Positions 43,585 to 43,742 of a stretch of 64,000 bases of DNA are shown one piece after another (positions within the stretch are counted from its first letter, which is position 1; each line of letters starts with the position of its first letter). The DNA is from a virus. Where the stretch lies: positions 7,245-71,244 of the IMG/VR virus record IMGVR_UViG_3300048918_000116. One strand, 5' to 3'. Both the position numbers and the translations under genes were made by a program. A model generated the notes under the pieces. That model made no database searches. It saw only the letters and a program-made list of their open reading frames with translations, and had not been told where the DNA came from.

Positions 43585-43742
43585 CTCGAGATAGCTCAGA
43601 TAGGTAGAGCACCACGTAGTAGATGTAATAGGCGACATGCTTGAGGCTGGAAACGCGCGTTGCGCTGGAACCTCCAATATAGCTGAGTAACTAGACATCT
43701 TTATTGTGGAGGTCGAAGGTTCAAATCCTTCTCTTGGGTCAA
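43585..43742 (+). ncRNA. tRNA-like RNA with a 98-nt structured domain replacing the anticodon arm
   Basis: Acceptor CTCGAGA/TCTTGGG, D arm TAGCTCAG..GGTAGAGC, AGGTC, T arm GAAGG-TTCAAAT-CCTTC; insert 43612-43709; no exact encoded CCA. Confidence 0.8.

What the first reader, a model, noticed from the sequence alone, without database searches (positions are those of the whole stretch)
43585..43742. tRNA-like element 1: 98-nt multi-stem cargo
Seen: the insert extends the anticodon stem as a long irregular helix (CCACG/TGTGG, AGATGT/ACATCT, TAG/CTA) enclosing GAGG/CCTC and GCGC(GTT)GCGC. It ends in GCTGAGTAAC, echoing GCTCAGTAAC in the element 3 insert. The 3' end reads T-CAA rather than N-CCA. 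Inference: a folded functional domain related to the element 3 cargo, possibly not aminoacylated.
Basis: partly seen in the sequence, partly recalled or inferred. Interest (0 to 1): 0.7.

Follow-up and report, generated by a model that had tools for sequence, protein, structure and literature searches.

The report
Eroded non-decoding tRNA-like phage gene
This is a tRNA-shaped gene in a phage genome whose anticodon loop has been replaced by 88 bases that look more like a duplication scar than a conserved folded domain, so it is fairly ordinary; its neighbours (three more anticodon-less tRNA look-alikes, two large hairpins and an RNA ligase gene) are more interesting.

Summary
The window is an uncultivated Queuovirinae-like phage. 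Bases 43585-43742 do hold a tRNA-shaped element. It has a 7/7 acceptor stem, 4/4 D stem, 5/5 T stem and a 5-bp anticodon stem, with 88 nt where the 7-nt loop should be and a 3' T-CAA.

They are no more stable than shuffles (z -0.27, 71 of 200). The helix extension beyond the inherited anticodon stem is not unusual (77 of 500).

The E1 and E3 inserts do not align better than shuffles (288 of 1000). The 3' part of the E1 insert resembles a second, decayed tRNA 5' half. No homolog of the insert turned up in any collection I scanned.

E1 is the most eroded of four paralogous tRNA-like genes (E1, E2, E3, and a new one at 34602). None has a usable anticodon loop, and all keep the tRNA top half. An RtcB ligase gene lies 7 kb downstream.

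Best reading: a non-decoding tRNA-derived gene with a scar insert. "Functional cargo" is not supported, though not excluded.

The parts
43585..43591 (+). E1 acceptor stem, 5' strand (CTCGAGA)
   Evidence: Pairs 7/7 (two G.U) with 43732-43738. 90.6% identical with flank to the E2 5' part.
43594..43610 (+). E1 D arm (GCTC / AGATAGGTA / GAGC, with GG in the loop)
   Evidence: 4/4 pairs.
43612..43709 (+). 98 nt in place of the 17-nt anticodon arm: 5-bp stem CCACG/TGTGG enclosing 88 nt
   Evidence: Coordinates. MFE fold and shuffles. End-pairing test.
43673..43696 (+). Relic of a second tRNA 5' half inside the insert (TCCAATA-TA-GCTG...), containing GCTGAGTAAC at 43682-43691
   Evidence: Rfam tRNA 20.5 bits for 43673-43739, below the 29-bit cut-off. 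MAFFT aligns it to the 5' half of E2. Local alignment to the 5' halves is reached by 38-100 of 2000 shuffles. Pairs 6/7 with the same 3' acceptor strand (read).
43710..43731 (+). Variable loop AGGTC and T arm (GAAGG / TTCAAAT / CCTTC)
   Evidence: 5/5 pairs. 96.4% identical to E3 over 28 nt.
43732..43742 (+). Acceptor 3' strand TCTTGGG, discriminator T, then CAA instead of CCA
   Evidence: The paralogs E2, E3 and A all read GCCA.
43754..43825 (+). E2: tRNA-like paralog with a 13-nt mini anticodon arm and GCCA
   Evidence: Rfam tRNA 50.4 bits. ARAGORN 'tRNA-???' with a two-base anticodon. 16/16 stem pairs.
43829..43957 (+). E3: tRNA-like paralog with a 68-nt insert and no closing anticodon stem
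   Evidence: Rfam tRNA 42.8 bits with 66 nt skipped. Fold z -0.75.
43954..44079 (+). Hairpin B, 20-bp stem starting in the CCA of E3 (CCAACATT...AATGTTGG)
   Evidence: MFE -56.9 kcal/mol, z -5.68, 0 of 200 shuffles.
44082..44257 (+). Ordinary tRNA-Leu(GAG) and tRNA-Pro(UGG)
34602..34690 (+). Element A: fourth tRNA-like paralog (7/7 acceptor, 5/5 T stem, GCCA, 6-bp anticodon stem with a 16-nt loop)
   Evidence: Found by my own top-half scan. Sequence. Missed by ARAGORN and by Rfam even at E up to 10. Stems.
34687..34775 (+). Hairpin A, same kind as hairpin B, with an ortholog in the closest relative
   Evidence: z -6.03. Ortholog at L114:1217-1312.
50779..51966 (+). RtcB RNA ligase gene, directly after a DpdA/TGT-like gene (49843-50769)
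   Evidence: phrog_1075, E 6.6e-153.

Best explanation
E1 is a tRNA-derived gene that can no longer decode. It is the first of three tandem paralogs (E1, E2, E3), and a fourth copy lies 9 kb upstream.

Its acceptor, D and T arms are intact. The anticodon loop is replaced by 88 nt of fast-diverging sequence that contains the relic of a second tRNA 5' half. The insert is therefore most likely a scar of partial duplication or recombination among tandem tRNA-like units, not a conserved folded cargo.

I found no promoter or terminator match around it, so I infer that it is transcribed within the long plus-strand operon. I also infer that its tRNA top half lets RNase P and the 3' processing enzymes cut it out as a tRNA-shaped RNA.

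E1 is the most eroded copy: two G.U pairs in the acceptor stem and CCA mutated to CAA.

Shown: the anatomy, the paralogy, the lack of excess stability and the lack of homologs. Inferred: transcription, processing and the origin as a scar.
For: - tRNA body intact: 16 of 16 stem pairs in E1, E2 and E3, and 15 of 16 in A.
- Flanks conserved between E1 and E3 (82.9% and 96.4%), while the middles align no better than shuffles (288 of 1000 global, 216 of 1000 local).
- Insert stability is at shuffle level. The helix extension is not unusual (77 of 500).
- 43673-43739 scores 20.5 bits as a tRNA in a second register. It aligns to the 5' halves of the paralogs (38 to 100 of 2000 shuffles).
- A mirror-image case exists in an unrelated phage: one 5' half with two alternative 3' halves (L136:2729-2856).
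- No sigma-70-like promoter or terminator in 43300-44400.
- Paralogs E2, E3 and A keep GCCA, whereas E1 reads TCAA.
- No simple excision restores a 7-nt loop with U33. The contiguous candidate TCTTTAT has C33, and every choice taking two or more bases from the 5' side has A33 (read).
- The slot between the 206-aa gene and QueE is empty of tRNAs in most relatives, so the content is lineage-specific and labile.
Against: - That is what a tolerated or selected cargo would look like.
- The 10-mer GCTSAGTAAC is found nowhere else in the window.
- Similarity of the insert to a tRNA 5' half is only marginal (p about 0.02-0.05, chosen after looking) and is absent for E3 (527 to 1264 of 2000).
- Conservation of the top half could reflect recent duplication or gene conversion rather than selection.
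- There are no expression data of any kind.
Confidence: 0.5

Rival explanations
1. Dead pseudogene. E1, and perhaps the whole set, is non-functional debris of a rapidly turning-over phage tRNA island. The intact top half reflects recent duplication or gene conversion only.
For: - E1 has lost CCA and carries two G.U pairs in the acceptor stem.
- The tRNA-like elements are absent from most relatives. Element A has no counterpart in the closest relative, although the hairpin next to it does.
- No homolog of the insert was found anywhere.
Against: - Element A is highly diverged from E1-E3: only 5-6 of 16 stem pairs are identical, with 7-9 changed on both sides. It still keeps 15 of 16 pairs. Part of that count rests on a shifted acceptor register.
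- E2 versus E3 shows 3 two-sided changes, all still paired.
- All four copies lost decoding but none lost the top half.
Confidence: 0.2
2. The tRNA body is a natural scaffold that carries a folded functional RNA domain, related between E1 and E3, which is released and stabilised by tRNA processing.
For: - The insert extends the anticodon stem coaxially.
- E3 has an equivalent basal helix of different sequence.
- The shared 10-mer sits just 5' of the returning strand in both.
- Engineered tRNA scaffolds work this way in E. coli (PMC3753655; search listing and abstract only).
Against: - No excess stability.
- The inserts are not alignable.
- No Rfam match at E up to 10.
- No antisense target in the window better than E 0.27.
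- No homologs.
Confidence: 0.15
3. Intron-bearing tRNA. The insert is cut out, by a nuclease or by self-cleavage, leaving cyclic-phosphate and 5'-OH ends that the phage RtcB ligase joins to give a working tRNA.
For: - RtcB is encoded 7 kb downstream.
- Among relatives it is found only in the closest one, which also has tRNA-like elements.
- ARAGORN with introns allowed reads E3 as tRNA-Thr(AGT) with a 30-nt intron.
Against: - In E1 no simple excision gives a 7-nt loop with U33 (read).
- The ARAGORN intron calls are a chimera of the E1 5' half with the E2 3' half, and an E3 model with C33 and an unstructured 26-nt variable region.
- E2 and A have no insert, yet they too lack a usable loop.
- No ribozyme or group I family at E up to 10.
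Confidence: 0.06
4. Y RNA-like (YrlA-type) tRNA mimic read in the permuted register: T arm, closed acceptor hairpin, D arm of the next unit.
For: - Rfam YrlA partial match of 33.7 bits across the E2/E3 junction.
- The acceptor sequences are near-palindromic, so neighbouring units could pair (read).
- RtcB genes accompany YrlA in Salmonella (PMC7790460, passages seen).
Against: - The score is far below the 69-bit gathering cut-off.
- The authors themselves warn that dimeric tRNAs score as false positives (PMC4201824, passage seen).
- The phage has no TROVE/Ro60 gene.
- The strands that would close the Ro-binding helix are not complementary (read).
- In E1 the CCACG/TGTGG stem fits the ordinary tRNA register.
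Confidence: 0.03

Closest known systems
Aberrant tRNA genes and pseudo-tRNAs in phage tRNA clusters
   Same: Derived from tRNA, sits in a tRNA island next to ordinary tRNA-Leu and tRNA-Pro, is tandemly duplicated, and is lineage-specific.
   Different: Four paralogs all keep a perfect top half while all lose the anticodon loop in different ways: 13-nt mini arm, 16-nt loop, 68-nt insert and 98-nt insert.
YrlA / bacterial Y RNAs (Rfam RF02553; PMC4201824)
   Same: A non-decoding RNA that mimics the tRNA acceptor, D and T arms. An RtcB gene lies in the neighbourhood, as in the Salmonella rsr-yrlBA-rtcBA operon.
   Different: Ordinary, not permuted, strand order; no Ro60 gene; 33.7 bits against a 69-bit cut-off, and that match lies on the E2/E3 junction, not on E1.
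tmRNA tRNA-like domain
   Same: The acceptor stem and T arm are formed by the two ends of the RNA, with a large insert where the anticodon arm would be.
   Different: No G3:U70 (C3:G70 here), a full D arm, an insert of only 98 nt, and no tmRNA call by ARAGORN.
Engineered tRNA scaffold for recombinant RNA (PMC3753655; listing and abstract only)
   Same: The anticodon loop is replaced by a foreign hairpin that extends the anticodon stem. Processing and stability would be expected from the tRNA body.
   Different: That is an artificial design. Here nothing shows that the insert is a payload.
Intron-containing tRNA genes (archaeal bulge-helix-bulge introns, bacterial group I introns; from general knowledge)
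   Same: An insert in the anticodon arm, and an RtcB-type ligase in the same genome.
   Different: No canonical loop can be restored, no bulge-helix-bulge is evident, the insert is too short for group I (about 200 nt or more, from general knowledge), and no Rfam intron or ribozyme match.

Membership tests
tRNA (Rfam RF00005) | 7-bp acceptor stem, D arm with GG, and T arm with a TTCRANY loop | tested here: met
   7/7, 4/4 and 5/5 pairs; T loop TTCAAAT; D loop AGATAGGTA.
tRNA (Rfam RF00005) | 5-bp anticodon stem closing a 7-nt loop with U33 and a three-base anticodon | tested here: not met
   The stem is present (CCACG/TGTGG) but encloses 88 nt. No simple excision restores U33 (read). ARAGORN makes no call.
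tRNA (Rfam RF00005) | Score at or above the 29-bit gathering cut-off | tested here: not met
   Not listed at gathering. The best match is 20.5 bits for the inner register 43673-43739. The outer register (155 nt) may exceed the model's window, so this is a weak negative.
tRNA (Rfam RF00005) | 3' CCA, encoded or added, and aminoacylation | not testable with these tools
   The DNA encodes T-CAA. CCA addition and charging need experiments.
YrlA / Y RNA-like (RF02553) | Encoded next to a Ro60 (TROVE) gene | tested here: not met
   No TROVE match in the 71-kb record at E up to 0.1; the control genomes were found. The record is 86% complete.
YrlA / Y RNA-like (RF02553) | Permuted order (T arm, closed acceptor stem-loop, D arm) inside a helix formed by the RNA ends, and a score of at least 69 bits | tested here: not met
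   Only a 33.7-bit partial match on the E2/E3 junction. E1 has the ordinary order.
tmRNA | G3:U70 alanine identity pair and a tag reading frame; detection by ARAGORN | tested here: not met
   Position 3:70 is C:G. No tmRNA was reported.
Self-cleaving ribozymes and group I introns in Rfam | Match to a covariance model | tested here: not met
   No such family at E up to 10 in 43400-44400.
Phage-specific tRNA-like paralog family (E1, E2, E3, A; defined here) | Shared 5' and 3' halves by sequence, intact top half, non-canonical anticodon arm | tested here: met
   Self-BLAST identities of 83-96%; stem table.

The most novel reading that the evidence does not exclude
The four anticodon-less tRNA look-alikes and the RtcB ligase form one phage counter-defence kit. 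The look-alikes would be matured like tRNAs and act as uncleavable decoys or competitive inhibitors of host tRNA-targeting nucleases. RtcB would reseal the host tRNAs that still get cut. The variable inserts, E1's included, would then be tolerated or even selected precisely because they remove the nuclease's target loop.

Probability: 0.1. Interest if true: 0.75.

Novelty: new member of a known kind. Interest (0 to 1): 0.33.

Why it matters
E1 on its own matters little. It shows how tandem tRNA-like genes in a phage erode and fuse, and it warns that a neat-looking extended helix can arise without selection.

The wider set could matter more. A phage lineage keeps several tRNA top-half mimics that cannot decode, next to conserved 20-bp hairpins and an RNA repair ligase. 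If these RNAs are made and matured, they would be a natural example of tRNA mimicry in phage-host conflict, and a natural counterpart of the engineered tRNA scaffold.

Tried and rejected
**Searches for homologs of the E1/E3 inserts: none found**
- 12 loci syntenic through the upstream 206-aa gene and 7 through QueE in viral contigs (read).
- 80 of 395 QueE relatives, scanned with my own top-half finder.
- Pattern scans of viral contigs hit only ordinary tRNA-Met genes, tRNA fragments or chance sites.
80 became loci and were read together with the 18 viral hits. All 98 were ordinary tRNAs or tRNA 3' fragments.

**Sequencing runs**
- No RNA holder was listed.
- Contigs of three DNA runs were laid. 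Only the probable source run covers E1. The other two runs cover just the generic tRNA parts, where ordinary tRNAs carry 4 more bases than E2 in the anticodon arm.

**Other checks on the insert**
- Antisense targets of the inserts and hairpins in the window: nothing better than E 0.27.
- ARAGORN with introns allowed gave only chimeric or implausible models.

**RtcB association**
- RtcB is in 1 of 5 and 0 of 5 relatives' records and in 1 of 50. It is always the same closest relative, so this is one evolutionary event, not a statistic.
- Among 80 loci around related RtcB genes in other phages, five contain an odd tRNA-like element: L115, L136, L169, L187 and L193. Only L136, L169 and L187 were then read. 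I have no base rate, so I make no claim.

- Three literature searches found no description of phage tRNA-like genes with anticodon-arm inserts. Most subscription journals are not in that library.
- Supplements of PMC4201824, which list the phage YrlA RNAs, could not be seen.

Full report
**Context.** The window is 64 kb of a 71,244-nt IMG/VR virus record, estimated 86% complete. Gene content is that of a siphovirus of the Seurat/CAjan/Vid5 (Queuovirinae-like) kind.
- Upstream of the finding lie a ligase, Sak4, SSB, a Cas4-type exonuclease and a helicase.
- Downstream lie QueE, QueC, QueD, FolE, a DpdA/TGT-like gene and an RtcB ligase.
- The finding sits in the intergenic slot between a 206-aa gene, whose relatives are annotated as a transcriptional activator, and QueE.
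- In cultured relatives this slot holds no tRNA. In most uncultivated relatives it holds only a terminator-like hairpin and a conserved motif in front of QueE.

**The observation.**
- E1 (43585-43742) has a 7/7 acceptor stem with two G.U pairs, a 4/4 D stem with GG in the loop, and a 5/5 T stem with the loop TTCAAAT.
- It has a 5-bp anticodon stem (CCACG/TGTGG) enclosing 88 nt, and a 3' T-CAA.
- ARAGORN and Rfam at gathering score do not call it. They do call E2 (50.4 bits, with a 13-nt mini anticodon arm), E3 (42.8 bits, with 66 nt skipped), tRNA-Leu(GAG) and tRNA-Pro(UGG).

Several tests show nothing beyond chance:
- The energy is at shuffle level: -24.3 against -23.3 ± 3.5 kcal/mol, z -0.27, 71 of 200 shuffles.
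- The 88 nt inside the stem give z +0.56. The whole element gives z +0.21 and folds differently.
- I made a more pointed test, counting MFE pairs between the first and last 20 nt. For the 88 nt it gives 9 pairs, reached by 77 of 500 dinucleotide shuffles. Only with the inherited anticodon stem included does it stand out (14 pairs, 9 of 500).
- No Rfam family matches the region at E up to 10, self-cleaving ribozymes and introns included.

**Is it related to the E3 insert?** E1 and E3 are clearly paralogs: the 5' parts are 82.9% identical over 35 nt and the 3' parts 96.4% over 28 nt. The inserts themselves align no better than shuffles (global 40.0 against 37.5 ± 4.5, 288 of 1000; local 216 of 1000).

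The 10-mer GCTSAGTAAC occurs only at these two places in the window. That test was framed after seeing the motif. About 0.16 such 9-of-10 matches are expected between two sequences of these lengths (my arithmetic).

The motif contains GCTCAGT, the 5' D-arm motif of these same elements. In E1 it lies in a stretch, 43673-43696, that looks like a second tRNA 5' half:
- Rfam scores it as the start of a tRNA in a second register (20.5 bits).
- MAFFT aligns it to the 5' half of E2.
- It aligns locally to the paralogs' 5' halves better than 95-98% of shuffles.
- Its would-be acceptor strand TCCAATA pairs 6/7 with the same 3' strand, with Watson-Crick pairs at the two positions where the outer strand has G.U (read).

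For E3 the same test is negative. An unrelated phage holds the mirror image, one 5' half with two alternative 3' halves (L136). I therefore read the E1 insert as a scar of partial duplication or recombination between tandem units. The middle of E1 and E3 has diverged freely while the flanks stayed alike.

**The family.** My own scan for tRNA top halves found a fourth paralog, A, at 34602-34690.
- It has a 7/7 acceptor stem, a 5/5 T stem and GCCA, but a 6-bp anticodon stem with a 16-nt loop.
- Both ARAGORN and Rfam miss it.
- All four elements thus lack a usable anticodon loop, each in a different way, while the top-half stems are kept: 16, 16, 16 and 15 of 16 pairs.
- Two-sided changes preserve pairing: 3 between E2 and E3, and 7-9 between A and the others. 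Caveats: A's acceptor stem is in a shifted register, and the E2 T arm may come from a different tRNA.
- E1 is the most eroded member: it has G.U pairs, and it reads TCAA where the others read GCCA.
- The closest relative (QueE 60% and RtcB 82% identical) has two tRNA-like elements in the same slot. One has a 12-nt mini anticodon arm. The other has G3:U70 and an 11-nt loop (my reading). Another relative has one with a 9-bp stem and a 5-nt loop.

**Function.** No sigma-70-like promoter or terminator is found around either cluster. The elements are therefore probably read through from upstream genes and cut out by RNase P and 3' processing; this is an inference.

The insert cannot be removed to give a normal anticodon loop, since the candidates have C33 or A33 (read). 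The intron models of ARAGORN are chimeras. Splicing with the help of RtcB is therefore unlikely, though RtcB makes it worth one RT-PCR.

The YrlA partial match (33.7 against 69 bits) lies on the junction of two tandem units, a false-positive type that the YrlA authors themselves name (passage seen). The phage also has no Ro60 gene.

RtcB is confined to this phage and its closest relative among the records searched: 1 of 5, 0 of 5 and 1 of 50, always the same record. That fits a joint acquisition with the tRNA-like elements, but it is a single event. A decoy role against tRNA-targeting nucleases is my boldest reading. A comparable idea was voiced for YrlA (passage seen). Nothing here tests it.

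**Verdict.** The interpretation as a functional cargo is not supported. E1 is best described as an eroded, non-decoding member of a small phage-specific family of tRNA-derived genes.

Noticed in passing
window 34687-34775 and 43954-44079; L114:1217-1312: Two long hairpins, each with a stem of about 20 bp and a branched top, each starting in the CCA of a tRNA-like element (CCAACATT...AATGTTGG). Their z-scores are -6.0 and -5.7. The first has a structural ortholog with changed stem sequence at the same place in the closest relative. None is in Rfam. They could be RNase III processing sites.
   Followed up: partly
window 34602-34690: A fourth tRNA-like element (A), missed by ARAGORN and Rfam, in a 420-nt non-coding stretch between a MazG-like gene and the next gene. 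The rest of that stretch (34378-34600) is unexplained.
   Followed up: partly
window 43754-43825; L014:2803-2871; L169:4737-4812: tRNA-like genes with a perfect body and GCCA or ACCA, whose anticodon arm is a short hairpin capped by a 3-6-nt loop. They occur in three phages, one of them unrelated apart from its RtcB gene.
   Followed up: partly
L014:2880-2955: A second tRNA-like element in the closest relative, with G3:U70 in the acceptor stem (the alanine identity pair), a reduced D arm and an 11-nt anticodon loop. This is my reading of the sequence only.
   Followed up: no
window 44272-44313 and the same place in most relatives: A conserved motif directly upstream of QueE: CCCGTACTCA, a short variable hairpin, then GATCCTCGTGAGGT a few bases before the start codon. 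It could be a phage promoter or a translational operator.
   Followed up: no
window 49843-51966: A DpdA/TGT-like gene is directly followed by an RtcB RNA ligase gene. RtcB is absent from 49 of 50 related records searched, and closely related RtcB genes (65-82% identical) occur in many unrelated phages.
   Followed up: partly
window 46779-47249 and 48577-49116: Two HNH endonuclease genes are inserted within the 7-deazaguanine gene cluster. The second overlaps the end of the FolE-like gene.
   Followed up: no
L136:2729-2856: A tRNA-like gene in an unrelated RtcB-bearing phage. It has one 5' half, a 5-nt anticodon loop and two alternative T-arm/acceptor 3' halves, the mirror image of E1.
   Followed up: partly
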